Source: Candidatus Saccharimonadales bacterium
Lineage (GTDB): Bacteria; Patescibacteriota; Saccharimonadia; Saccharimonadales; SZUA-47
Length of the DNA: 64,000 bases
Direction of reading: 5' to 3'
Assembly (NCBI GenBank): GCA_041737385.1
Contig: JBGSRU010000002.1
Location: 333,437 to 397,436 of the forward strand
In this document: positions 53,990-64,000 of the stretch, one piece after another
How positions within the stretch are numbered: position 1 is the stretch's first letter
Layout: each line of letters starts with the position of its first letter
Notes under the pieces: model-generated
Database searches by the model: none
What the model was told of the DNA's origin: nothing
What the model saw: only the letters and a program-made list of their open reading frames with translations
Made by a program: the position numbers and the translations under genes

Positions 53990-55546
53990 ATGGATTACGC
54001 GAAACAGTATAAAAGGAAACTCTCACTCATTGTTGCAGCATCTTTACTTTTCAGCGTGCTCATAAGCCTTGGTATGTGGTTATTTTTATCGTCCGTCTTC
54101 AGTGACGATCAACTACTTCTCGTTATAGTTTGGGTGTTAATTACTTCTGCGTTAATAGGGTTTTTATCGTTACATGTTGCTCGCGCTACTTTTCAACCAC
54201 TTAGCAAGCTATCTGACGCAATCGTATTTGCTGGGCATAATTCTAGAGGTGGAACAGCACCTGACACTGAAGCGCTTCATCTTGGTCGAGAGCTCGTTAC
54301 ATCACTTGCCCTGCAGGTCTATGATTTAGCCAGCATGGCCAGTGACAGCAGCTCAATGACAAATGAAACAAATCAAACTTTAGCCACACCAACCATGCAA
54401 GCAATCACTCCTTCCGTACTTGACCATGTTGGATTGCCGGTTTTTGGTATTGATCCAAACCAGAATATTACCGCAGTGAATAGAGCAGCCTGTGAATATC
54501 TCGGCATAGAAGCAAGCCAAGTAATGGGTAGACCGTTTTATGACGCCGTAAAGCTATCATTTCAGAGTGAAGAGACTTTTGAAGCATGGCTCAAAACAAC
54601 GCAAGGAAACGCCATAAAAGGTGTACGACTATGGGAACGAGTGCGAACAGTTGACCCAGAAGGCAATGCTGTTAAACAGTTCGATTTAGTTGCAAGTTTT
54701 AGCAAAGAAAACGTCAGTGGAACTGAAACAATGTTGGCTATATATGACCGAACTGAACAATATTCACGCGATGATCAAGAAATTGGGTTTGTTGCACTTG
54801 CGGTTCACGAACTTCGTACGCCACTCACTATTATGAAGGGCTACATCGAAGTTTTTGAAGACGAAGTAGGGCCAACATTGACGCCAGAGCTGACTGGTTT
54901 TATGCACAAGATGCAGGCTAGCGCGCAACAGCTTACTTCATTTGTTGGGAATATTTTAAACGTTGCACGCATACAAGAAAACCAACTCGTACTCAAGCTA
55001 CAGCAGCAAGATTGGCCACAAATTCTGAAAATTGCTGTAGAAGACCTTGCCTTAAGAGCTGGTGTTCACGGTAAGCACATCGAAGTGCAAGTAGCAGAGA
55101 ACATTCCACCGGTGGCTGTAGACAGAATTAGCATTCATGAAGTGCTCAATAATCTCGTCGATAACGCGATTAAGTACTCAGGAGATTCAGGTAAAATCGT
55201 TATCAAAACCGGCGTCAACCAAGACGGCATGGTGGAAACTAGTGTCCAAGATTTTGGTATTGGGATACCAACTGCGGTCATGCCAGATTTATTCCAGAAG
55301 TTCTACCGCAGTCACAAAAGCAGCATTCAAGTTGGTGGCACAGGCCTAGGATTATACCTCTGTAAAGCAGTCGTGGGTGCGCATGACGGCAATATCTGGG
55401 TTCGCTCAAAAGAAGGTGAGGGAAGTATTTTTAGTTTCACAATTCAACCGTTTGACCAACTCAAGCACGAACAGCCAGCTGGCCAAGATGGTATTATGAG
55501 AGGAGCTCATGGATGGATCAAAAACCATTCAATGAATAGACAATAA
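53990..55546 (+). CDS. sensor histidine kinase (2 TM, PAS-like, HisKA, HATPase_c)
   Basis: H-box HELRTPL, N-box NLVDNAIKY, G1 DFGIGI, G2 GTGLGL. Confidence 0.9.
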   Translation: MDYAKQYKRKLSLIVAASLLFSVLISLGMWLFLSSVFSDDQLLLVIVWVLITSALIGFLSLHVARATFQPLSKLSDAIVFAGHNSRGGTAPDTEALHLGRELVTSLALQVYDLASMASDSSSMTNETNQTLATPTMQAITPSVLDHVGLPVFGIDPNQNITAVNRAACEYLGIEASQVMGRPFYDAVKLSFQSEETFEAWLKTTQGNAIKGVRLWERVRTVDPEGNAVKQFDLVASFSKENVSGTETMLAIYDRTEQYSRDDQEIGFVALAVHELRTPLTIMKGYIEVFEDEVGPTLTPELTGFMHKMQASAQQLTSFVGNILNVARIQENQLVLKLQQQDWPQILKIAVEDLALRAGVHGKHIEVQVAENIPPVAVDRISIHEVLNNLVDNAIKYSGDSGKIVIKTGVNQDGMVETSVQDFGIGIPTAVMPDLFQKFYRSHKSSIQVGGTGLGLYLCKAVVGAHDGNIWVRSKEGEGSIFSFTIQPFDQLKHEQPAGQDGIMRGAHGWIKNHSMNRQ

Positions 55547-55548
55547 TT

Positions 55549-55962
55549 ATGGAAGAATCACCTACAACACCACCATCCACAACTCAGCCAAGCATCCTCG
55601 TCATCGAGGATGAACGCTTTATTTCTGAGCTCTACACCCGCGCACTACAAAAAGCAGGTTACAAGGTAGAGACTTCAGCCGACGGTGAGCAAGCACTCTT
55701 CACTGCAGTCAATAACCACTTTGATGTGATTTTGTTAGATATTATGTTACCGACGATGAATGGTGTTGATCTTTTATATAAAATGAAGAGCGACCATGTC
55801 CAACCTGCGATGACTAGCAAGATAATCATTACGACAAACCTCGATCAAAAAGAAGAAACAAGAAGCAAAATTGAGAAACTAGCTGATGGTTATCTTATCA
55901 AGGCTGAAATTACTCCTAGAGAGCTCGTCAACTATGTCAACCAAGTTATTGGCCGTTCATAG
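55549..55962 (+). CDS. receiver-only response regulator
   Basis: ILVIEDE…, ILLDIMLP, and a conserved Lys (LIKA). No DNA-binding domain. It starts 2 nt after the kinase stop. Confidence 0.85.
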   Translation: MEESPTTPPSTTQPSILVIEDERFISELYTRALQKAGYKVETSADGEQALFTAVNNHFDVILLDIMLPTMNGVDLLYKMKSDHVQPAMTSKIIITTNLDQKEETRSKIEKLADGYLIKAEITPRELVNYVNQVIGRS

Positions 55963-55987
55963 CTTACTAGACATCACCTCTGTTTCT

Positions 55988-55996
55988 TGCTATTAT
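55988..55996 (+). promoter_or_regulatory. extended -10 TGCTATTAT with no credible ORF downstream
   Basis: TGnTATTAT lies 26 nt after the regulator stop. The downstream 430 nt are non-coding and end at a strong terminator (56416-56444). Confidence 0.4.
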
Positions 55997-56039
55997 CTTG
56001 TAAGTTTTCACCATTGAATAAGATTAATACGCACCCAGC

Positions 56040-56067
56040 CCGTTCAAAGAGAGGATTCTTTGAACGG
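56040..56067 (+). other. perfect 11-bp stem hairpin
   Basis: CCGTTCAAAGA (56040-50), loop GAGGAT, TCTTTGAACGG (56057-67). There is no U-tract. Confidence 0.6.
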
Positions 56068-56157
56068 AACGAATCAAAGACTCGTTTTGGCTACAATTTT
56101 TGCTCATCTATCTTGTTTTGTGGGCAAAAAAGTAACCAAACCATTACGCTTCGATTC

Positions 56158-56173
56158 AGGTCCCATCATCTAA
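56158..56173 (+). repeat. copy of the tRNA-Glu 5' end (AGGTCCCATCaTCTAA)
   Basis: 15 of 16 identical to 56528-56543, the start of the tRNA-Glu gene. Confidence 0.7.
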
Positions 56174-56197
56174 AGTAAGAAATGCCTGTGGCATTTA

Positions 56198-56295
56198 GCA
56201 AGGAGACTTTCTGAATCAAACTTGTTTTCAAAAGAGAAGTTACGGGTGAGACAATCCTGTGAATTGTCGCAAGGAGACTTTCTGAATCAAACTTG
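56198..56295 (+). repeat. two perfect 27-nt direct repeats (GCAAGGAGACTTTCTGAATCAAACTTG), each preceded by a short hairpin
   Basis: Copies at 56198-56224 and 56269-56295, period 71 nt. Preceding hairpins are AAATGCC-tgt-GGCATTT and GACAAT-cctgtga-ATTGTC. Confidence 0.8.
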
Positions 56296-56415
56296 CTTGA
56301 TATCATGAAATCTCGGGGTCGCTGAAAGTGACCGCTGAAAGTGGGTAGGACATCTTAACCGTCAAAAACATAGCGTTTTAAAAATCTTAATATATAATGT
56401 TGTTAAGTGTAGCTT

Positions 56416-56444
56416 AAAAAATCACGAGAGGACTCGTGATTTTT
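56416..56444. terminator. bidirectional rho-independent terminator
   Basis: AAAAA, ATCACGAG, loop AGGA, CTCGTGAT, TTTT. Confidence 0.8.
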
Positions 56445-56528
56445 AGAGGAGTGACTTGTGTGACCAAGTCTTTACTTAACAAAGAGTAACGTCTTTGTTA
56501 AGCTAGACAGGTCATCAAGTCACGACGA

Positions 56529-56603
56529 GGTCCCATCGTCTAACGGTTAGGACACTAGATTCTCAATCTAGCAATACGAGTTCGATTCTCGTTGGGATCA
56601 CCA
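56529..56603 (+). tRNA. tRNA-Glu (anticodon CUC), CCA encoded
   Basis: Hand-folded. Acceptor GGTCCCA/TGGGATC. Anticodon stem CTAGA/TCTAG with loop TTCTCAA. T-arm ACGAG-TTCGATT-CTCGT. 75 nt. Confidence 0.9.
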
Positions 56604-56665
56604 TTTTAGTTTTACAAAGGTCAGAAAATCTGCAGTTCACGTATTTTCTATTTTGTGTCTTGGGA

Positions 56666-56695
56666 CAATAGTGAAAGAGTTCGACTCTTATTAGG
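56666..56695 (+). repeat. degenerate copy of the tRNA-Glu 3' half (T-arm-like hairpin AAGAG-TTCGA-CTCTT)
   Basis: CAATA…GAGTTCGA.TCT…TT.GG is collinear with the tRNA variable loop, T-arm and acceptor. It lies 63 nt after the tRNA. Confidence 0.5.
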
Positions 56696-56737
56696 TGTAT
56701 AATGTGGTAAATGAATAAAAAACTAACTATATAGTCT

Positions 56738-57259
56738 ATGGCGAATGAAATTTTATTCGAAACAACTATCGATAAATACGATTTTGGACCGTACTTTTAT
56801 ACAGTTGTTTATGTAGGCAGCGACATTACTGACCAGCTACCTATGGATAAGTATCCACGATTAAGAGTAGAGGCTACTGTTGACGGCTACCCTTCGAAGG
56901 GCGCGTTAATGCCTGACAAGATAGGCTCAAAACAAACAGAGCACCTGCTGAATAAAAGTTACACGAAACGTGGTGAAAGAATCTGGTATTTTCAGGTACC
57001 GAAGAAAGTACTTAAAGAAATATCGAAAGAACTTGGTGATTCTGTAGAGGTCAAAATAAGTGTGGGTAATCAAGATGAGGTCGAAATTCATCCAGCAATG
57101 GAGGATTTCTTAAGAGAAAACGATACAGTTAATCAAAAATGGGAAACATTGACTCCAGGAAAAAAGCGATCTTTAGCATACCCTGTGTTGAAAGCAAAAA
57201 CAGATATAACACTCGAGAAAAGACTTATAGAACTAGAGGAAGCATTACTCAACCTATGA
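56738..57259 (+). CDS. DUF1905 + YdeI/OmpD-associated-like protein
   Basis: N-terminal DUF1905-like beta domain. The C-terminal TPGKKRSLAYPVLKAKTDITLEKRL resembles the YdeI C-terminal motif. Confidence 0.55.
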   Translation: MANEILFETTIDKYDFGPYFYTVVYVGSDITDQLPMDKYPRLRVEATVDGYPSKGALMPDKIGSKQTEHLLNKSYTKRGERIWYFQVPKKVLKEISKELGDSVEVKISVGNQDEVEIHPAMEDFLRENDTVNQKWETLTPGKKRSLAYPVLKAKTDITLEKRLIELEEALLNL

Positions 57260-57421
57260 CAATCATTCCTTGAGAGGTTTTTTATAATTGAATCTCAAAA
57301 TAACTCTACAACAAACAATACTTTTCTTACGCTATGAGGCTCAGAAGCCTCTAAGCAAAAACGTATTTGGAGATTATATTCTTAAACTAATGATGCAAGA
57401 AATATAGACAATTAAAAACTA

Positions 57422-58096
57422 TTAGTTTATTTTACAGAATCTTTTAAAGTAATTTTGAAATTCAACTGCTGCTTTGTAGTCTTCTAGTATCGAAGGTAGT
57501 AAATCGTCTGATAGTGCTAAATCAATTGGATACTCTTTTCCATAAGTCCAAGTTTTATTTAAAATATACGGGTTTTTATTCAGTGAGCCTTCAAACTCTT
57601 TGGGAACTCGTTTGTTTCGTTCGCCGTTTACTCCACCCCAATGTTTATTAAATGTTTTTGACTTAATTATTTTCATAAATTCTTCTGGGTTTTCAGCCAT
57701 TGCTGATTGTATTTTATTTTTAATTGATGTACCGGGCATATACATGCCGCCTAATACTTGGATGTTATCTACGACTCCTAGAGATATCAAGTAGCCAGGC
57801 CAGGTGAATGTATCTGATTTATTAATTCCAAAAGCAACAGCCATGTTAGTCCGGTATGGTGCTTTATCTTTGCTGAAACGAACGTCTTTATTGATCCTAA
57901 GCATCGCATTCGGTCCATCAACTTCTATGTCTTGGTCAATCTTTTTCATACCTTCAAGCAAATCTGTACTAAATTTCTTAAACGGATCTCTGACAAACAT
58001 TTCGTACCCACTTCGATGCTCGTCAAACCACTCCTTATTATTATTCAGTGTTAAATTACCAAAAAATTCTATATATTTATTTGTAAAGTATTTCAT
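57422..58096 (-). CDS. DUF2461 (TIGR02453) family protein
   Basis: FFGNLTLNNNKEWFDEHRSGYE…RINKDVRFSKDKAPYRT pattern. Confidence 0.7.
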   Translation of the reverse strand: MKYFTNKYIEFFGNLTLNNNKEWFDEHRSGYEMFVRDPFKKFSTDLLEGMKKIDQDIEVDGPNAMLRINKDVRFSKDKAPYRTNMAVAFGINKSDTFTWPGYLISLGVVDNIQVLGGMYMPGTSIKNKIQSAMAENPEEFMKIIKSKTFNKHWGGVNGERNKRVPKEFEGSLNKNPYILNKTWTYGKEYPIDLALSDDLLPSILEDYKAAVEFQNYFKRFCKIN

Positions 58097-58129
58097 GTAA
58101 TTATCATAGCTAAATAAAAATATATTTGC

Positions 58130-58150
58130 AATACGATACCGTATCGTATT
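58130..58150. promoter_or_regulatory. perfect palindrome AATACGATAC-C-GTATCGTATT, candidate TetR operator
   Basis: 10-bp arms, 12 nt upstream of the MFS start, overlapping a TATTAT -10-like hexamer. A TetR gene is the next gene downstream of the MFS gene. Confidence 0.55.
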
Positions 58151-58161
58151 ATCATTTATTT

Positions 58162-59682
58162 ATGGAAATATTTACAAGATCTAACTCAAAACAAGCAATA
58201 CAAAAAAAGCGCTGGCTCATCCACGCAGTCATGAGTAGTGGGCTTTTACTCGTAATCATGTCAGTAAGCTCATTAAATGTCGCTATACCGACTTTAGTAC
58301 GCGAACTTGGGACTACATCAACTCAACTACAATGGATATTAGACAGTTACGCATTAGTCTTTGCAGGGCTACTATTTTTAGCCGGTTCAATTGGAGATAG
58401 ATATGGCAGAAAAGGTGCATTTCTAGCTGGAATGAGCGTTTTCGGAATTGCAAGTATCTTCGCTGGTTTAGCCGATACACCTCAACAGTTAATTGCAAGC
58501 CGTGCTCTGATGGGAGCTGGTGCAGCTTTTATTATGCCGGCAACACTGTCAATTATTGCAAACGTATTCACAGACAAAAGAGAACGAGCAAAAGCGGTAG
58601 CTATGTGGGCTGGGTTTGCTGGAGCGGGCGGTGCTATTGGCCCCGTAGTTGCTGGTACTTTACTCGAGTTCTTTTGGTACGGCTCAATATTTTTCGCTGC
58701 AATACCCGTTGTTATACTCTCTATGGCTTTGACAGTGTTATTCGTGCCGACCTCGATGGATCCTGAACATGAAAAACTCGATTGGACAGGTGCACTACTT
58801 TCAGTGGCAACAATCGGTGCATTACTCTACACCATTATCGAAGCGCCCGTTTACGGATGGGCTAGTATACACACACTTATCTCAGCGATTATTAGTATCG
58901 TCTTGTTTATTCTGTTTATTTTATGGGAGCGTAGAGTCAAACATCCTATGCTGCCACTTAGTTTCTTTTCATCTAAAAGATTTTCTATCGGTAGTTTGAC
59001 TTTAGTACTCACGTTCTTTGGATTATTTGGTTTGTTTTATGTCTTGACGCAATACTTGCAGTTTGTACAGGGTTATACAGCGCTGGAAGCGGCAATACGC
59101 ACATTGGTTATTGGTGGAGCATTAGTAGCTGTTTCTAAATACGTGACAAACTTTGAAGAGAAACTTGGGACACGAAAAGTTCTTACAGGAGGACTTATTA
59201 TTGTTGGCATTGCTTTTGTAATGCTAGCGCAATTAAACGCAGACACTTCAGTCTGGTATATTTTGGCTAGCTTAACAGTACTTGGAGGCGGCATGGGACT
59301 TGCAATGCCGACTGCTACAGAAGCTATTATAGGTTCTGTGCCAACTAGAAAAGCCGGGGTTGGTTCAGCAATGAATGACACAACACGTGAATTTGGAGGT
59401 GCACTTGGCATAGCGGTATTTGGAAGCTTACTTGCTTCTAACTATAGCTCAAACATCGCAAGTTCTCTATCAAATTTACCACAAGAAGCGCTAAAAACTG
59501 CTGAATCTTCAATTGGTGGGGCTTATGCAATTGCTGAAACATTACCCGAACAGGCTAATACAATTATTATGGCTGCTAATACTTCATTTATAGATAGCTT
59601 ATCCGTCATAATGTACATTGGTGCCTCAGTCATGGTCTTGGCTGCATTAATTGCTTACAATCTTATGGTTGATAATAAATAA
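58162..59682 (+). CDS. MFS transporter, DHA2 (EmrB/QacA-like, 14-TMS) drug:H+ antiporter family
   Basis: GSIGDRYGRK (motif A-like), and many TM helices over about 500 aa. The start is set to ATG 58162. Confidence 0.8.
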   Translation: MEIFTRSNSKQAIQKKRWLIHAVMSSGLLLVIMSVSSLNVAIPTLVRELGTTSTQLQWILDSYALVFAGLLFLAGSIGDRYGRKGAFLAGMSVFGIASIFAGLADTPQQLIASRALMGAGAAFIMPATLSIIANVFTDKRERAKAVAMWAGFAGAGGAIGPVVAGTLLEFFWYGSIFFAAIPVVILSMALTVLFVPTSMDPEHEKLDWTGALLSVATIGALLYTIIEAPVYGWASIHTLISAIISIVLFILFILWERRVKHPMLPLSFFSSKRFSIGSLTLVLTFFGLFGLFYVLTQYLQFVQGYTALEAAIRTLVIGGALVAVSKYVTNFEEKLGTRKVLTGGLIIVGIAFVMLAQLNADTSVWYILASLTVLGGGMGLAMPTATEAIIGSVPTRKAGVGSAMNDTTREFGGALGIAVFGSLLASNYSSNIASSLSNLPQEALKTAESSIGGAYAIAETLPEQANTIIMAANTSFIDSLSVIMYIGASVMVLAALIAYNLMVDNK

Positions 59683-59697
59683 GTTATACTTAGTGAA

Positions 59698-60276
59698 ATG
59701 GACCAACAAGATACAAGAATAGAGCTGTCTAAAAACAAGATAACCGAAGCGGCATTGGAATGGATGCTAGCTGATGGTATGGACGCCCTAAGCATCGATG
59801 GTCTCGTTAAACGATCTGGCGTAGCAAAGACAACCATATATCGTCATTTTGAATCGATAAACGATATACTTGCAGACACCATAATTAAAACACTTCCAAA
59901 ACAAAAATCTGTTGATACTGGCTCTATTATTACCGATATGGAGTTATTACTTGGCTATACTCGTCAATCATTTGAATCTGCAACATGGGGAAAGTTACTT
60001 GCCGATATAGTAAAGAAAACAATTCAAGACGAAGAATTTAGAAAAATAAAAGGCAAACACATGGCCCAAATGATGGATCCAATGAGAGTTGCAATAAAAC
60101 GCAGTATAGATAGGGGGGAAATTAACCCAGACATTCCAACTGAGAATGTTATTGTGCATATGATTGGGCCATGCTATTACGCCCATTTTGAATGTCCAGA
60201 TCTGTATAGAACAAAAAAAGACATCGATTTGATTGTGCACAACTCTTTGTCAGAATACTTAGTAAATAACCAGTAA
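59698..60276 (+). CDS. TetR/AcrR-family transcriptional regulator
   Basis: N-terminal HTH: LSIDGLVKRSGVAKTTIYRHFES. Confidence 0.85.
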   Translation: MDQQDTRIELSKNKITEAALEWMLADGMDALSIDGLVKRSGVAKTTIYRHFESINDILADTIIKTLPKQKSVDTGSIITDMELLLGYTRQSFESATWGKLLADIVKKTIQDEEFRKIKGKHMAQMMDPMRVAIKRSIDRGEINPDIPTENVIVHMIGPCYYAHFECPDLYRTKKDIDLIVHNSLSEYLVNNQ

Positions 60277-60292
60277 TGATTTTAAAAGTAAC

Positions 60293-60871
60293 ATGATAGA
60301 GACTGATAATTTTGAAAAGGTCATAATAAGTTCTAAGCAAGAATTAAGAAACTGGCTCTTGAAAAATAATGGACAAAGCGAAAGTGTGTGGATAGTTACT
60401 TACATGAAGCATATTGGTGATTGTTACGTCTCTAAAGAACAAATACTTGACGAGGTACTATGTTTTGGCTGGGTAGATGGCATTAGACGTAAATTAAATG
60501 ATAACCAGACTATGCAGCTAATCAGTAAACGCAAAGCTCAACATTGGGCTAGGTCATACAAAAAAAGAGTAGAGAACTTGGCTACTGCAAACCTAATGCA
60601 TGAGTCAGGAATTAAAAGCGTGGAAGAAAGCAAATCAAGTGGGCTATGGAATTTTATGGATGACGTCGATGACTTGATACTTCCTAATGATCTTAAACAG
60701 GAATTACTGAAAGCCCCACCAGCCTATTCTAACTTCATGTCATTTAACAATTCTTCAGTGCGAAATATGTTACGCAGAATCAAATTGACTAAAACTGAAA
60801 AAACTAGGATAAAGTACATTCAGCAAACGGTAAACCTTGCTAAATTAAATAAAAAAGTACCACAAACCTGA
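60293..60871 (+). CDS. YdeI/OmpD-associated family protein
   Basis: ELRNWLLKN…VWIV…ILDEVLCFGWVDGIRRKLND pattern, and a C-terminal LRRIKLTKTEKTRIKYIQ. Confidence 0.6.
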   Translation: MIETDNFEKVIISSKQELRNWLLKNNGQSESVWIVTYMKHIGDCYVSKEQILDEVLCFGWVDGIRRKLNDNQTMQLISKRKAQHWARSYKKRVENLATANLMHESGIKSVEESKSSGLWNFMDDVDDLILPNDLKQELLKAPPAYSNFMSFNNSSVRNMLRRIKLTKTEKTRIKYIQQTVNLAKLNKKVPQT

Positions 60872-60905
60872 CAGCCATAGCAACTAATTAATTTTAAACT
60901 TTTAC

Positions 60906-61130
60906 CTATAAACAATGTAATTCATCTTTACACATTATTTCTTTATAGATACTATGATCTAATATATTATGTGAACCTTCCCACACACTACTTTTGTAAA
61001 TTATTGCTAGTTTTCTATATCTTAAGCCATTAAATGTCATTACTGTAATTCCTGTATGCTCAAGAATCTTAACTACTATCATCGCTTGCTCCCTGAGACT
61101 TCCATCATGATGATTTGGATTTATAGTCAA
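60906..61130 (-). CDS. small hypothetical ORF (doubtful)
   Basis: 74 aa with a non-ATG start. No convincing motif. Confidence 0.25.
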   Translation of the reverse strand: MTINPNHHDGSLREQAMIVVKILEHTGITVMTFNGLRYRKLAIIYKSSVWEGSHNILDHSIYKEIMCKDELHCL

Positions 61131-61511
61131 TACTTTAACACTTAGACCTCTCTTTATTTTTTACGAGCACATGTTAGTGAACCTGGTGGCTCAGAGCCTA
61201 GTTATGTATGAGCTCACAATAATAACTTCGCGTTTTGCTTTCTTTATATCGGTACTGAAAGCTTTAAACTAGGAGTATTCATCAAAAAGCTCTGACTAGA
61301 CAGGGAAGTGATCTCTTTTTCTAAACATCTTTAAATTCCTCGAATTTCTCAAGACGTTTATCAAGCTTAATTAAATCATCGTAAAGCGAGTTCCACCCAT
61401 TTGCCGGCAGGCTCACCAAATAAAGTAGGTCACAAAAGTGGCCTTTTTTATTTGATGTCCTGACGAGCGATCGAGCTAAAAGAGTTCGCTAATCCCCCGA
61501 ATCTTTGATTC

Positions 61512-61548
61512 AGACGGGCGGATTCTTCCTATCTAGTTGGGATCACCA
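61512..61548 (+). repeat. left copy of the ~46-nt direct repeat (AGACGGGCGGATTCTTCCTAT…GGATCACCA)
   Basis: 21-nt exact core shared with 63871-63891. Both copies end in GGATCACCA. Confidence 0.75.
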
Positions 61549-61555
61549 GTGTTAG

Positions 61556-61580
61556 AGCCTCACGTTTATGTGGGGCTTTT
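61556..61580 (+). terminator. terminator-like hairpin after repeat unit 1
   Basis: AGCCTCA, loop, TGGGGCT (one G-U pair), then TTT. Confidence 0.45.
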
Positions 61581-61680
61581 ACACTTGTGGTTTCACTTGT
61601 GAAACCGAACTCGAGAGTTCGTTCAGCACCCAATACTCAAGCTGCTGGTACTCTTCTCGTTGGGATCACCAACTTAAGCA

Positions 61681-61702
61681 CTCACCCCCGTGGTGAGTTT
61701 TT
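61681..61702 (+). terminator. rho-independent terminator after repeat unit 2
   Basis: CTCACC, loop CCCGT, GGTGAG, TTTTT. Confidence 0.7.
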
Positions 61703-61862
61703 AAATTCACAGCCTCATCGAGGTCGAGCCAGAAGAGTTCGTTATTTATCAGTCGCTACGCTACAGACGTGCAACATTCATTTTAATTTGAAAAATATCT
61801 CTACCTGTACACCGAATTACGCTATATACATGGAGGAATTAAACAATTATGATTGGGGTTGA

Positions 61863-62363
61863 ATGAATGAAAATGATTTCTATAAAAAACTCTTAAAAAA
61901 CTTACACCGATTCTTTATGTCAAAAACTTTTGATATATCATTAAGTGAAGATTTAACGAGCGAAGTATTACTAACTGTTTATGAGCAATTCAAGATACAG
62001 CAAGGAAATTCGAATATCAAGGATAGAGAGAAGTATGTATATGGTATCGCAAAAAATGTTTGGCTTAGGTACCTTAGGTCAAAGTACTCAAACTTAGTTG
62101 ATTATGTTGAGAACGTCGAAGATTTTGAAAAATATGTCCTAAATTCAGTCGAAGAATATGAAAAGATGTCAATAATCCATAGGGCAGTCCCTTTTATTGA
62201 ACAACTACCTGAAAAGCAAAAACAGATATTACTGTTAAGGTTCAGGGATGGAATGAGTCTCAAAGAAATATGCAAAGCGACTGGTTCAAATATGAACTAT
62301 GTTAAAACTACCCAGAAAAGAGGAATCGCCTCATTGAAGAATAATATCCAAGGAGATAAATGA
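61863..62363 (+). CDS. sigma-70 family (ECF-like) RNA polymerase sigma factor
   Basis: Region 2-like YGIAKNVWLRYLR. Region 4 HTH: LPEKQKQILLLRFRDGMSLKEICKATGSNMNYVKTTQKRGIASLK. Confidence 0.8.
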   Translation: MNENDFYKKLLKNLHRFFMSKTFDISLSEDLTSEVLLTVYEQFKIQQGNSNIKDREKYVYGIAKNVWLRYLRSKYSNLVDYVENVEDFEKYVLNSVEEYEKMSIIHRAVPFIEQLPEKQKQILLLRFRDGMSLKEICKATGSNMNYVKTTQKRGIASLKNNIQGDK

Positions 62364-63745
62364 TGGAAAACAATGATTTAGAAAAATTATTTTCAGGAGA
62401 ACAACTTGAACCAAGTAAAAAATTCGAAAAACAATTACTCAATAGGCTCAGTAAAGATGCTAAAAATCCAAAGATATGGTTTTTTTATAAGCTGAGCAGC
62501 GTATTAGTTATCACACTGATGCTCATAGGCGTAGCTCTTTATCAACCAAACTCTGATAATTTGAGCAATACAGTTCTTCTTAAAGAGCTATACCAAAAGG
62601 CGTTGGCGGATGAACTACCAGAGTCAAATGATGTAAACTTCTGGAAAATAATCGGAGGTACAACTTATGGAGCACAAGCACCTCTTTGCACAAATACTGA
62701 ATCGGGTGTTTCCTATCAGAAGCTTTCATTGCTGTATAAAAACAATCAAGAGTCTGCGTATTTTAATACCAGCACAGAGCAATATACACAACCGTATATG
62801 AATTATAGCGATGATTCTGATATTCCCGCCTACGATGATTCCGTATTCACCGGTGCAAATTCATACGTTGTTCAACAATATCTAGCAAATACTTATCTTA
62901 CAAACGAAAACGGCAATAAACTAACTGATAACGCAACAACAGAAGTTAAAACCGAAGGATCTTACCTCGTGTATGCCAAACTAGAAACACCAAGTTCGGA
63001 TGTAAAGAACTTCGTAGACGGATGTAATAATCTACAGATAAAAATTGAGATTGATGCAGAGACAGGATTATACGAGTCTATCTACATTTACAATGTTTCA
63101 AACAATAGTAAGTTAGATGAAGCAAACCTTAGTTTTTCGCTCTTTCAGCAGATTGAAACTGCTAGTTTCGCGAGCTTTTCTGATGTTGATGAAGAATTTA
63201 TCTCTGAGGGATTTGATCTTGAAACCGCACGATCAAATACCTTGAATAATTCCTACTCCCGAATAGTAAACAAAGAAGCAGGTTTCGAATTTTGGTATGA
63301 CAAACCACTGCTTGGCAAGTCAGAATTAAAATTAAGTCGTGATAATAACGGAAATGTGACGTCGTATCAATATGTCTTTTTGAAACATCCAGAAGTAACC
63401 TACATTATATACACATCATTCGCTAGAGACGTCATAAATTTGGAAGAGAAAATAGTTTTAGATAATCTAGAAGTTGTTACTAGAAACACTGGTGAGTTTA
63501 AGTTGCCCGGGTATGGAGAAGTAACGAGTACTTATTTGACAGCAAAAAATGACACTACAAAATACCAACTATCGATAACTGGCTCGACTGATATCATTGC
63601 GGTATATATTGAGGCTCCCCTTGAGCTGGGAGTATCAACAAAAGTAGATAAAAATGCCCCAGATTTTCCATATATAGAGGACAAAATATTGTCTATGATC
63701 GTCAGTGTATTTCCTCCTAATACAGACCCACCGAGTGGGCTATAA
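62360..63745 (+). CDS. single-pass membrane protein coupled to the sigma factor (putative anti-sigma/partner)
   Basis: ATGA overlap with the sigma gene. Short cytoplasmic N-terminus, a TM (YKLSSVLVITLMLIGVALY), and a large extracytoplasmic domain. Confidence 0.5.
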   Translation: MMENNDLEKLFSGEQLEPSKKFEKQLLNRLSKDAKNPKIWFFYKLSSVLVITLMLIGVALYQPNSDNLSNTVLLKELYQKALADELPESNDVNFWKIIGGTTYGAQAPLCTNTESGVSYQKLSLLYKNNQESAYFNTSTEQYTQPYMNYSDDSDIPAYDDSVFTGANSYVVQQYLANTYLTNENGNKLTDNATTEVKTEGSYLVYAKLETPSSDVKNFVDGCNNLQIKIEIDAETGLYESIYIYNVSNNSKLDEANLSFSLFQQIETASFASFSDVDEEFISEGFDLETARSNTLNNSYSRIVNKEAGFEFWYDKPLLGKSELKLSRDNNGNVTSYQYVFLKHPEVTYIIYTSFARDVINLEEKIVLDNLEVVTRNTGEFKLPGYGEVTSTYLTAKNDTTKYQLSITGSTDIIAVYIEAPLELGVSTKVDKNAPDFPYIEDKILSMIVSVFPPNTDPPSGL

Positions 63746-63870
63746 AATATCACAATCTGTAAGAAACTTAAGCCGATCAATATTGCATTATGTGTAGATA
63801 CAGACAAAAAGCATGATCTCTAGTCAAACAGAACCCTAAAGAGCCTGCTAAGCCTGCAAACTTTAGCTTA

Positions 63871-63907
63871 AGACGGGCGGATTCTTCCTATTCGCTCAGG
63901 ATCACCA
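63871..63907 (+). repeat. right copy of the ~46-nt direct repeat
   Basis: AGACGGGCGGATTCTTCCTAT, then TCGCTCAGGATCACCA. Confidence 0.75.
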
Positions 63908-64000
63908 AAGAAGAATTTTCAGACGATAAGGCTTTAGAAAAAGGATTCTTCTCTGTAAAAAAGGTGTGTTTCGTGTTTGAATTTTTATAATTTCATAGCT

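What the first reader, a model, noticed from the sequence alone, without database searches (positions are those of the whole stretch)
55988..56444. Promoter-to-terminator non-coding unit (~440 nt) packed with hairpins and repeats upstream of tRNA-Glu
After the response-regulator stop there is an extended -10 (TGCTATTAT, 55988-96) but no credible ORF. The downstream sequence contains these elements in order:
- a perfect 11-bp hairpin (56040-67)
- a tRNA-Glu 5'-end copy
- two hairpin-plus-27-nt repeat modules
- a tandem CGCTGAAAGTG x2 (about 56319-56342)
- a strong bidirectional terminator (56416-44)

A further nested stem (GTGACTTG…CAAGTCAC, 56451-56523, enclosing an 11-bp hairpin at about 56474-56502) abuts the tRNA 5' end. 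I could not match RNase P, tmRNA, SRP or 6S signatures by eye. This may be an undescribed structured RNA or the scar of a mobile element.
Basis: partly seen in the sequence, partly recalled or inferred. Interest (0 to 1): 0.6.

Follow-up and report, generated by a model that had tools for sequence, protein, structure and literature searches.

The report
New tRNA-Glu-derived structured leader RNA
Just upstream of a glutamate tRNA gene in this Saccharibacteria genome lies a conserved folded RNA that matches no Rfam family; it is built from the first 17 bases of that tRNA fused to a set of hairpins whose pairing evolution has preserved, and it may be a tRNA-specific regulator whose function is still unknown.

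Summary
They are not a random pile of hairpins.

The core, window 56159-56362, is one member of a conserved RNA family:
- I found it in 4 Saccharibacteria MAGs and 19 metagenome contigs.
- Wherever the contig extends far enough, it sits on the same strand 30-120 nt upstream of tRNA-Glu (CTC or TTC).

Its order of parts is:
- tRNA-Glu nt 1-17;
- one or two three-hairpin units (P1, GCAAGG, P2, CGGGG, P3) sitting where the D loop would be;
- the 3' side of the D arm (TAGGACA);
- a short tail.

Covariation is strong: 16 of 33 pairs are compensatory in 11 sequences, and 26 of 33 in 23. G.U pairs place the RNA on the + strand. Rfam gives no match and no reading frame stays open.

The window carries the two-unit form. 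The "terminator" and the nested stem are a second copy of a conserved leader set that here precedes the real tRNA.

Function is inferred, not shown. Most likely it is a leader or riboregulator of the tRNA-Glu operon, descended from a tandem tRNA-Glu copy. One related genome lacks it.

The parts
55968..55996 (+). Promoter of the unit: TAGACA, 17 nt, TGcTATTAT
   Evidence: One search gives 10 of 12 matches with the TG extension. The same block (TAGACATCACCYCTGTT..TGCTAWWAT) lies at the same distance, about 163 nt, from G+1 of the element in L024.
56040..56067 (+). Leader hairpin H1, first copy: 11-bp stem around AGAGGATT, which reads as loop GAGGAT
   Evidence: (I3). The homologous hairpins in L013, L024 and L007 have different stems around the same AGAGGATT / GGGGATT sequence.
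56097..56130 (+). Degenerate copy of the long leader hairpin H2, with apex ..CTTGTTTTG..
   Evidence: (I10) and the fold. It aligns with H2 of L007, L013 and L024.
56159..56175 (+). Copy of tRNA-Glu nt 1-17 (acceptor 5' strand, D-stem 5' strand, start of D loop). It differs from the real tRNA at nt 10 and nt 16.
   Evidence: (D3). In 18 of 22 loci with a tRNA in view the first 15-17 nt match that locus's own tRNA-Glu exactly; the other four differ at one position.
56176..56245 (+). Unit 1: P1 hairpin 56176-56200, GCAAGG 56198-56203, P2 56205-56241, linker ACGG
   Evidence: Coordinates. P1 covariation over 24 units is.
56246..56333 (+). Unit 2: GTGAGAC, P1' 56247-56271, GCAAGG 56269-56274, P2' 56274-56314, CGGGG, P3a 56317-56333
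   Evidence: This is the best match to covariance model R1 in the window (56246-56334, 61 bits, E 4e-15). It is 91% identical to unit 2 of L017.
56332..56345 (+). P3b hairpin (CCGCTGAAAGTGGG), the P3 that belongs to unit 1.
   Evidence: (D6). L017 has the same arrangement of P3a followed by P3b.
56346..56352 (+). TAGGACA, the 3' side of the tRNA D arm (nt 21-26). It can pair with 56168-56171 as helix P0.
   Evidence: columns 10-13 with 110-113. In the window A10 faces C25, so P0 has only 3 pairs (read from the sequence).
56353..56362 (+). Tail TCTTAACCGT, complementary to nt 15-24 (ACGGTTAGGA) of the real tRNA-Glu. It can also form a local hairpin with GGGTAGG.
   Evidence: I13. One search gives a duplex of -13.5 kcal/mol, z -3.7, with 0 of 300 shuffles as low.
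56393..56398 (+). TATAAT box between the element and the tRNA leader; possibly a second promoter
   Evidence: Read from the sequence. Boxes like the -10 hexamer are about twice as frequent as in shuffles upstream of the tRNA across loci.
56417..56451 (+).
   Evidence: I2. It aligns with H1 plus the AGGAGG-like block of L007, L013 and L024.
56451..56528 (+). Long leader hairpin H2, second copy, ending ..CAAGTCAC, then GACGA immediately before the tRNA
   Evidence: (I4). The same ..CGACGA|GG junction precedes the element in L001 and L024.
56529..56603 (+). tRNA-Glu (anticodon CTC), the gene the element always accompanies
   Evidence: ARAGORN. Rfam tRNA, 64.3 bits.

Best explanation
SHOWN. Window 56159-56362 is a member of a conserved structured RNA family that Rfam does not hold.
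- It reads on the + strand.
- In Saccharibacteria it sits immediately upstream of tRNA-Glu genes.
- It is a chimera: tRNA-Glu nt 1-17, then one or two three-hairpin units (GUGAGA-P1-GCAAGG-P2-CGGGG-P3) inserted where the D loop would be, then the 3' side of the D arm, then a short tail.

INFERRED ORIGIN. It is a tandem copy of tRNA-Glu that acquired the insert and lost its 3' half. Some loci still hold anticodon-arm remnants.

INFERRED MECHANISM.
1. It is transcribed from its own tRNA-type promoter. In the window this is 55968-55996, through a conserved 160-nt leader. In most loci transcription runs on into tRNA-Glu, so the element is the 5' part of the tRNA-Glu operon.
2. The units fold into a junction with invariant linker bases, closed by the former D stem (P0). 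This junction is the likely binding site for an unknown ligand or protein.
3. The 3' strand of P0 can pair instead with the tail: GGGUAGG with CUUAACC, or GGACA with UGUCC.
4. When the window-type tail is free, it is antisense to nt 11/15-24 of the nascent tRNA-Glu.
5. I therefore read the element as a tRNA-Glu-specific riboregulator that modulates folding, maturation or yield of the tRNA transcribed behind it.
For: Family and position:
- The DNA pattern scan returned 19 real loci, in addition to 4 MAG loci.
- A tRNA-Glu lies downstream on the same strand in every locus with enough sequence.
- Model R1 finds exactly one element per locus (two units in L009) and nothing else in 235 kb.

Structure:
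- RNAalifold gives 33 pairs, 16 with compensatory changes.
- Controls: 95.9% of cells paired against 81% in shuffles and 34-50% when partners are slid.
- P1 over 24 units: 8 of 10 pairs compensatory, 0 of 500 shuffles reach this.
- 23 sequences fitted to the model: 26 of 33 pairs compensatory.

Strand: conserved G.U pairs in P3.

Not coding and not a known RNA.

Age: the synteny DUF3048-HK-RR-element-tRNA-Glu holds out to loci whose response regulator is only about 45% identical.

Origin: L001 and L024 keep anticodon stem-loop remnants after TAGGA.

Operon reading:
- The promoter and leader are conserved.
- I see no terminator between element and tRNA in most loci, while strong terminators follow the tRNA.

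Switch and antisense:
- Forcing P0 costs 0-7 kcal/mol relative to the unconstrained fold in all but one locus (10 in L015).
- The GGACA/UGUCC hairpin has a compensatory variant, GGACG/CGUCC, in L014.
- Window-type tails pair with the tRNA D arm at -12 to -21 kcal/mol, z -2.3 to -5.6, and do so in folds of the nascent transcript.
- In the window and L003 the tail matches C16 of the real tRNA, not A16 of the element's own copy.
Against: - There is no expression data, no ligand and no protein partner. Every functional step is inference.
- A -10-like box lies between element and tRNA in about two thirds of loci (13 of 20, against 6.8 expected), so the tRNA can probably be made without the element.
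- The window has a hairpin followed by a T run (56417-44), and L004 a terminator-like hairpin, between element and tRNA.
- The antisense tail is not universal. Tails of the CCAGGCTGTCC type show no significant complementarity to the tRNA.
- Of five substitutions in the tail core, only two keep pairing with the tRNA.
- P0 covariation merely mirrors the tRNA's own D stem, and P0 is weak or absent in the window, L019 and L015.
- A related genome (L029, HK about 71% identical) has tRNA-Glu(CTC) with a plain promoter and no element, so the element is dispensable for making the tRNA.
- The match of nt 1-17 to the local tRNA could come from repeated re-copying. L004 and L005 also duplicate the promoter.
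Confidence: 0.4

Rival explanations
1. It is a stand-alone, trans-acting small RNA that serves as a platform or sponge for an RNA-binding protein. Its place next to tRNA-Glu would reflect only its origin and a shared tRNA-type promoter.
For: - It has its own promoter.
- Short motifs recur in exposed positions. GGA-containing sequences (AGAGGAUU in the hairpin, then AGAGGAG) occur in the leader, twice in the window. AACUUGUU hairpin apices occur in H2 and in P2 of most units.
- The window has a hairpin followed by a T run after the element.
- Tandem units (window, L017, L012) would multiply binding sites.
Against: - No protein partner is known.
- Most loci lack a terminator after the element.
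- The strict linkage to tRNA-Glu, and the way nt 1-17 and nt 21-31 track the local tRNA, are not needed for a sponge.
- The AACUUG apex is absent from several variant forms.
Confidence: 0.25
2. It is one half of a two-piece tRNA-like molecule. The element would supply the acceptor 5' strand and D arm. A second RNA encoded downstream of tRNA-Glu would supply the T arm and acceptor 3' strand with CCA. The real tRNA would be cut out from between them.
For: - L009 has a second unit downstream of its tRNA, inserted in the T loop of a tRNA-Glu 3'-half copy that ends ..TTGGGGTCACCA followed by a terminator.
- L005, L018, L022, L024 and L025 have sense copies of about nt 57-76 located 180-270 nt downstream.
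Against: - The 3' piece is absent or degenerate in many loci, including the window. There 56677-56695 is a decayed copy whose would-be acceptor strand cannot pair with GGTCCCA.
- There is no anticodon arm.
- The 3' copies usually fold back on an adjacent antisense copy.
Confidence: 0.08
3. It is the RNA part or footprint of a mobile element aimed at the D-loop position of tRNA-Glu. That could be a miniature integrative cassette carrying a replacement promoter and tRNA 5' part, or a guide-plus-scaffold RNA resembling the omega RNAs of IS200/605 elements.
For: - nt 1-17 of the tRNA form a direct repeat flanking the segment from the unit to the spacer.
- In L004 and L005 the repeat extends over the promoter.
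- The layout is a 17-nt tRNA-identical 5' segment followed by a structured scaffold.
- Distribution is patchy, since L029 lacks it.
- Unit 2 is 91% identical between the window and a locus of the other isoacceptor.
- GC content falls downstream of the tRNA.
Against: - No integrase, transposase, TnpB or IscB lies next to it in any of 24 loci.
- There are no copies away from tRNA-Glu in 235 kb.
- There is no Rfam match, including to HEARO.
- The orthologous position is kept across deep divergence.
Confidence: 0.08
4. It is a self-cleaving or otherwise catalytic processing element in the pre-tRNA-Glu leader.
For: - It is a compact multi-helix junction with invariant linker bases (GUGAGA, GCAAG, CGGGG) and variable stems.
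- It occurs in tandem copies.
- It lies within a tRNA precursor.
Against: - No known ribozyme family matches.
- The CUGAUGA seen in L001, L018 and L023 is not conserved.
- No cleavage-site logic is evident.
Confidence: 0.05
5. It is a functionless remnant: a decaying tRNA-Glu pseudogene or attachment-site scar whose hairpins are incidental.
For: - Partial tRNA-Glu copies, both sense and antisense, litter both sides of the gene in many loci.
- The window copy has two mismatches to the tRNA.
- Unit 1 of the window looks partly overwritten by unit 2, as shown by the 27-nt identical stretch.
Against: - 16-26 pairs carry compensatory substitutions.
- The single-unit form has a constant length of 108-112 nt (mostly 110) across diverged genomes.
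- The linkers are invariant.
- The G.U pairs are strand-specific.
- The element is retained at one locus while the neighbouring response regulator fell to about 45% identity.
Confidence: 0.04

Closest known systems
tmRNA (SsrA), including the two-piece forms
   Same: It is a tRNA-derived RNA in which parts of the tRNA (acceptor strand, D-arm region) are kept and large structured domains are inserted. In L009 a 5'-type and a 3'-type piece both exist.
   Different: The acceptor is tRNA-Glu-like with no G3.U70. There is no T arm or 3' CCA in the element and no tag reading frame. ARAGORN finds no tmRNA. The element is always next to an intact tRNA-Glu.
T-box riboswitch leaders
   Same: It is a structured leader RNA specific to one tRNA species, with potential for base pairing with that tRNA and for alternative helices.
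   Different: It lies upstream of the tRNA gene itself, not of an aminoacyl-tRNA synthetase or amino-acid gene. There is no specifier loop, T-box sequence or terminator/antiterminator pair. Rfam gives no match.
Regulatory RNAs cut from tRNA precursors, such as the 3'ETS of leuZ in E. coli (from my own knowledge)
   Same: It is non-tRNA RNA transcribed together with a tRNA that may have a regulatory role of its own.
   Different: Those are short, mostly unstructured spacers that act as sponges for small RNAs. This is a 110-200 nt covarying multi-helix domain fused to a tRNA half.
Group I introns in Patescibacteria tRNA genes (PMC13011429)
   Same: It is a structured RNA inserted inside a tRNA gene sequence in the same bacterial group.
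   Different: Those introns sit in the anticodon loop (for example position 35/36) of full-length, spliceable tRNAs, and Rfam recognises them. Here the insert is about 93 nt, sits in the D loop (the T loop in L009), and the host copy lacks its 3' half.
Split tRNA halves of Nanoarchaeum (from my own knowledge)
   Same: It is a separately encoded 5' part of tRNA-Glu with extra sequence attached.
   Different: This is a bacterium with no archaeal splicing endonuclease. A complete tRNA-Glu gene lies directly downstream, and no anticodon is present in the element.

Membership tests
tRNA (Rfam RF00005) | Complete cloverleaf with anticodon arm, T arm and acceptor 3' strand | tested here: not met
   ARAGORN calls only 56529-56603. 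Rfam tRNA hits only the real gene. The element holds only nt 1-17 and about 21-26 of the tRNA.
tmRNA | tRNA-Ala-like ends plus a tag reading frame, detectable by ARAGORN or Rfam | tested here: not met
   No tmRNA in the window or in 29 loci. Rfam finds nothing.
T-box riboswitch | Stem I with specifier, T-box sequence, and a position upstream of an aminoacyl-tRNA synthetase or amino-acid gene | tested here: not met
   No Rfam T-box match at E<=10 or in ten homologous loci. The downstream gene is a tRNA.
Group I intron in a tRNA gene | Catalytic core of about 200 nt or more, inserted in an otherwise complete tRNA, usually in the anticodon loop | tested here: not met
   The insert is about 93 nt per unit and sits in the D loop. 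The host copy is truncated. No intron family matches.
Riboswitch (generic) | Conserved junction or aptamer with covarying stems | tested here: met
Riboswitch (generic) | Expression platform with mutually exclusive helices that controls a downstream gene | tested here: inconclusive
   P0 and the tail hairpin compete and lie within a few kcal/mol of each other. No terminator or ribosome-binding site is controlled, and a second promoter may bypass the element.
Riboswitch (generic) | Specific ligand binding | not testable with these tools
   This needs in-line probing or calorimetry.
Dispersed mobile repeat (MITE, or IS200/605 miniature element with its omega RNA) | Many copies at unrelated sites, and/or an adjacent transposase, TnpB or IscB gene | tested here: not met
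   Model R1 finds no copy away from tRNA-Glu in 235 kb. The neighbours are HK, RR, DUF1905 and others.
Integrase attachment-site scar at a tRNA gene | A direct repeat of a tRNA segment bounding foreign DNA, with no selection on the bounded sequence | tested here: not met
   The direct repeat of nt 1-17 is present. But the bounded sequence is under structural selection, and no integrase lies within the 7 kb downstream.
Intrinsic terminator (for 56417-56444) | G+C-containing hairpin followed by a U run, at the end of a transcription unit | tested here: inconclusive
   There is a 12-bp hairpin whose 3' arm ends in TTTTT. The scan did not call it. It is homologous to leader hairpin H1, which in other loci is internal to the transcript.

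The most novel reading that the evidence does not exclude
This would be the first cis-regulatory RNA dedicated to a tRNA gene. A sensor domain grafted onto a copy of the tRNA's own 5' half would decide, through a P0 versus tail switch, whether an antisense tail (and possibly the tRNA-identical 5' strand) invades the nascent tRNA-Glu. That would gate the folding and maturation of the tRNA in response to an unknown ligand or protein.
Probability: 0.2. Interest if true: 0.85.

Novelty: new variant of a known kind. Interest (0 to 1): 0.68.

Why it matters
Saccharibacteria and other CPR bacteria have tiny genomes with few protein regulators, and almost nothing is known about their regulatory RNAs. 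Three points make this element worth attention.

- It is a covariation-supported RNA family built by grafting a junction domain onto half of a tRNA. The graft sits exactly at the D-loop/T-loop elbow.
- It has been retained next to tRNA-Glu for a long evolutionary time.
- If it controls tRNA-Glu maturation or supply, it would be a new layer of translational control. It would also be a clear example of a new regulatory RNA evolving from a duplicated tRNA gene.

Even if the function turns out to be different, it is a well-defined new family that can be added to RNA databases and tested by experiment.

Tried and rejected
- Rfam. I ran gathering thresholds on the whole window. I ran E<=10 on 55500-57000 and E<=5 on ten homologous loci. 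Only tRNA and chance hits came back.
- Viral contigs. The core pattern gave 0 hits.
- Exact-protein look-up of the response regulator, to identify the source genome. It failed twice.
- Leader peptide. The AGGAGG-like block followed by TTG suggested one. I rejected it because the TTG lies inside the H2 stem and the conceptual peptides differ completely between loci (read).
- Hammerhead-like CUGAUGA in P2. It is present in only 3 loci.
- boxA-like CUCUUGAAAAC in P2. It is base-paired and is absent from the variant forms.
- Pairing of nt 1-7 with CGGGGYC or with the tail. It is G+C-driven and shows no consistent covariation.
- Tail pairing with the element's own D-loop junction. It fits worse than pairing with the real tRNA.
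- Literature. Searches for a described equivalent found only group I introns in Patescibacteria tRNAs, which are different.
- Fetching more loci through response-regulator homologues. The RR-to-tRNA synteny is not universal, so I stopped.
Full report
THE OBSERVATION

- A promoter-like site, TAGACA-17-TGcTATTAT, at 55968-55996.
- A perfect 11-bp hairpin at 56040-67.
- A 15-of-16 copy of the tRNA 5' end at 56158-73.
- Two 53-nt modules at 56175-227 and 56246-298.
- CGCTGAAAGTG twice.
- A perfect 12-bp hairpin at 56417-44, flanked by A and T runs.
- A nested stem at 56451-56523.

Each of the six frames across 55963-56528 has 7-16 stops, and the three ORFs tested there (63, 46 and 37 aa) reach no Pfam cut-off. 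Rfam finds only the tRNA, even at E<=10.

RELATED SEQUENCES

The histidine kinase next door has 61-73% identical relatives in five Candidatus Saccharibacteria MAGs. In four of them a sequence related to window 56155-56360 lies just upstream of a tRNA-Glu.

I took a 37-nt degenerate pattern from the shared part. It is not expected by chance in the window.
- It found nothing in viral contigs.
- It found 21 metagenome contigs. Nineteen are clearly homologous and two are chance hits.
- Every homologous contig with enough sequence has a tRNA-Glu (CTC or TTC) 30-120 nt downstream on the same strand.

ANATOMY

The common form is 108-112 nt long, mostly 110. In order it contains:
- tRNA-Glu nt 1-17;
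- GUGAGA and hairpin P1, which has 8 variable pairs plus a U-A and a G-C pair across a conserved A/G mismatch, and a loop NGU;
- GCAAGG;
- P2, an outer stem enclosing a hairpin, often ..GAAAACUUGUUUUC..;
- CGGGG;
- hairpin P3, with a purine-rich triloop;
- UAGGACA, which is the 3' side of the tRNA D arm, often continuing through nt 31;
- a short tail.

The three hairpins therefore replace the D loop. The former D stem can close them as a four-way junction. Variant forms keep P1, the linkers and P3 but have a different P2 or an extended P3.

The window, L017 and L012 carry two units. The second is nested before the first unit's P3. The window and L017 elements are both 194 nt. Unit 2 plus P3a is 91% identical between them, and unit 1 only 64%.

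IS THE STRUCTURE REAL?

- In 11 single-unit sequences, RNAalifold predicts 33 pairs, 16 of them with compensatory changes.
- 95.9% of cells are paired. Column shuffles give 81%, and sliding the partners gives 34-50%.
- P1 counted over 24 distinct units: 95.4% paired, 8 of 10 pairs compensatory, 0 of 500 shuffles as good.
- 23 sequences aligned to model R1: 26 of 33 pairs compensatory. That alignment is fitted to the model, so it leans towards the structure.
- Two conserved G.U pairs in P3 would be C/A mismatches on the other strand. The RNA is therefore read on the + strand, like the tRNA.
- The covariation in P0 only mirrors the tRNA's own D stem and is not independent evidence.

DISTRIBUTION AND AGE

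Model R1 finds one element per locus, always at tRNA-Glu, and nothing else in 235 kb, including the rest of the window.

The order DUF3048-HK-RR-element-tRNA-Glu is shared by the window, L001, L004, L005 and the distant L011, L014 and L022, whose response regulator is about 45% identical. The element is therefore old and vertically inherited at this locus.

It is not universal. L029 (GCA_040384045.1) has tRNA-Glu(CTC) with a plain promoter and no element. L002, L027 and L028 have no tRNA after the response regulator.

ORIGIN

- The first 15-17 nt match each locus's own tRNA-Glu exactly in 18 of 22 loci with a tRNA in view, although acceptor sequences differ between loci. The other four (the window, L001, L009, L021) differ at one position within that stretch; over the full 17 nt the window copy differs at two positions (nt 10 and nt 16).
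- L001 and L024 still show anticodon-arm remnants after UAGGA.
- In L004 and L005 the promoter in front of the tRNA is also duplicated in front of the element.

The element is best seen as a tandem tRNA-Glu copy that gained the insert and lost its 3' half. Occasional re-copying of the promoter and 5' part has occurred since.

In L009 a second unit sits downstream of the tRNA, inside the T loop of a copy of the tRNA's 3' half. The unit can therefore occupy either loop of the tRNA elbow.

THE LEADER

The window promoter and the first hairpin are homologous to the leaders of L024, L013 and L007. The shared order is:
- promoter block TAGACATCACCYCTGTT..TAWWAT;
- hairpin H1, with covarying stems around a conserved AGAGGAUU / GGGGAUU sequence;
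- an AGGAGG-like block;
- a long hairpin H2, with apex ..AACUUGUUU..;
- ..CGACGA immediately before G+1.

In the window this set occurs twice. A partly decayed copy precedes the element (56040-56158). An intact copy precedes the tRNA (56417-56528).

HOW IT MIGHT WORK

The following is inference.
- Most loci show no terminator between element and tRNA, while a strong one follows the tRNA. The element is probably the 5' part of the tRNA-Glu operon.
- However, -10-like boxes are about twice as frequent as expected both before the element and directly before the tRNA. The tRNA can probably also be made alone.
- The 3' strand of P0 can pair with the tail instead: GGGUAGG with CUUAACC, which is perfect in L023, or GGACA with UGUCC, which has a compensatory variant in L014. 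Forcing P0 costs 0-7 kcal/mol relative to the unconstrained fold in all but one locus.
- Tails of the window type are antisense to nt 11/15-24 of the real tRNA-Glu: -12 to -21 kcal/mol, z -2.3 to -5.6. They pair with it in folds of the nascent transcript.
- In the window and L003 the tail matches the tRNA rather than the element's own diverged copy.

Together this suggests a junction domain that binds something unknown and switches between two states. One state leaves the tail sequestered. The other lets it interfere with folding of the tRNA behind it.

Weak points:
- The antisense tail is absent from the other tail type.
- Tail substitutions are only partly pairing-neutral.
- P0 is weak in the window.
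- The element is dispensable in L029.

RIVALS

In order of my belief:
- a stand-alone protein-binding small RNA, suggested by the repeated GGA and AACUUG motifs;
- one half of a two-piece tRNA-like RNA, based on L009 and the downstream 3' copies;
- the RNA of a mobile or guide-type element, although no recombinase and no dispersed copies were found;
- a ribozyme;
- a functionless scar, which the covariation contradicts.

COMPARISON WITH KNOWN SYSTEMS

The element is not a tRNA, tmRNA, T-box leader or group I intron, because defining features were tested and not met. The literature searches found no description of it. The nearest report concerns group I introns in Patescibacteria tRNA anticodon loops.

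It resembles tmRNA and other tRNA-derived RNAs in being a tRNA scaffold with grafted domains. It resembles riboswitch leaders in its conserved junction and competing helices.

VERDICT

This is a real, conserved structured RNA family, absent from Rfam and from the literature I searched, that is tied to tRNA-Glu in Saccharibacteria. Its function is unknown, and regulation of the tRNA-Glu operon is the best guess. I am close to certain that it is a selected structured RNA. I put the proposed mechanism at about 0.4.

Noticed in passing
window 56604-56700; L005, L009, L015, L017, L018, L022, L024, L025 downstream of their tRNA-Glu: Downstream of tRNA-Glu and its terminator, many loci carry a degenerate antisense copy of tRNA nt 76 to 40. 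A sense copy of about nt 57-76 follows, often with a second terminator. Between the two lie conserved hairpins, for example GAAGAAAGC..GCATTTTCTTC in L024 and L025. The window keeps a decayed version: AGAAAAT..ATTTTCT at about 56622-56650 and a T-arm-like copy at 56677-56695. This may be a second family of tRNA-Glu-derived RNAs.
   Followed up: partly
L009 443-560: A second three-hairpin unit (78.8 bits with model R1) sits in the T loop of a tRNA-Glu 3'-half copy: GGCAATAGGG|unit|TCAATTGCCCTTGGGGTCACCA, followed by a terminator. The unit can therefore occupy either loop of the tRNA elbow.
   Followed up: partly
window 56040-56067 and 56417-56451; L007, L013, L024 leaders: The leader hairpin carries a conserved GGA-containing sequence (AGAGGAUU or AGAGGACU) and is followed by a single-stranded AGAGGAG / AAAGGAGG block. 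The stems covary. The layout of one GGA in a loop and one in a Shine-Dalgarno-like block recalls CsrA-type binding sites, yet no ORF follows.
   Followed up: partly
window 55968-55996; L024, L001, L017, L018, L003, L021, L012 upstream regions: The motif C(C/T)CTGT(T/A) recurs just upstream of, or overlapping, the -10 box of these non-coding RNA and tRNA promoters. It could be a lineage-specific promoter element or a regulator binding site.
   Followed up: no
window 56198-56224 and 56269-56295: The 27-nt stretch GCAAGGAGACTTTCTGAATCAAACTTG is identical in units 1 and 2 of the window. In L017 the two units differ here. This suggests recent gene conversion from unit 2 into unit 1, which weakens the inner P2 hairpin of unit 1.
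   Followed up: partly
window 57000-64000: GC content drops from about 0.43 to 0.34-0.40 downstream of tRNA-Glu. The genes there are DUF1905/OmdA, DUF2461, an MFS transporter, TetR, a second OmdA and an ECF-type sigma factor. This may be an island inserted at the tRNA, although no integrase was seen.
   Followed up: no
L029 4650-4870 (GCA_040384045.1): A related Saccharibacteria genome has tRNA-Glu(CTC) with a simple TGnTAAAAT promoter and neither the element nor the leader hairpins. The element has therefore been lost or was never gained in some lineages.
   Followed up: yes
L004 7405-7470 and 7580-7645; L005 2010-2046 and 2185-2235: The promoter and leader in front of the tRNA are duplicated almost exactly in front of the element: 1 mismatch in about 83 nt in L004, and an 18-nt indel in L005. 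This points to recurrent re-copying between the two positions.
   Followed up: partly
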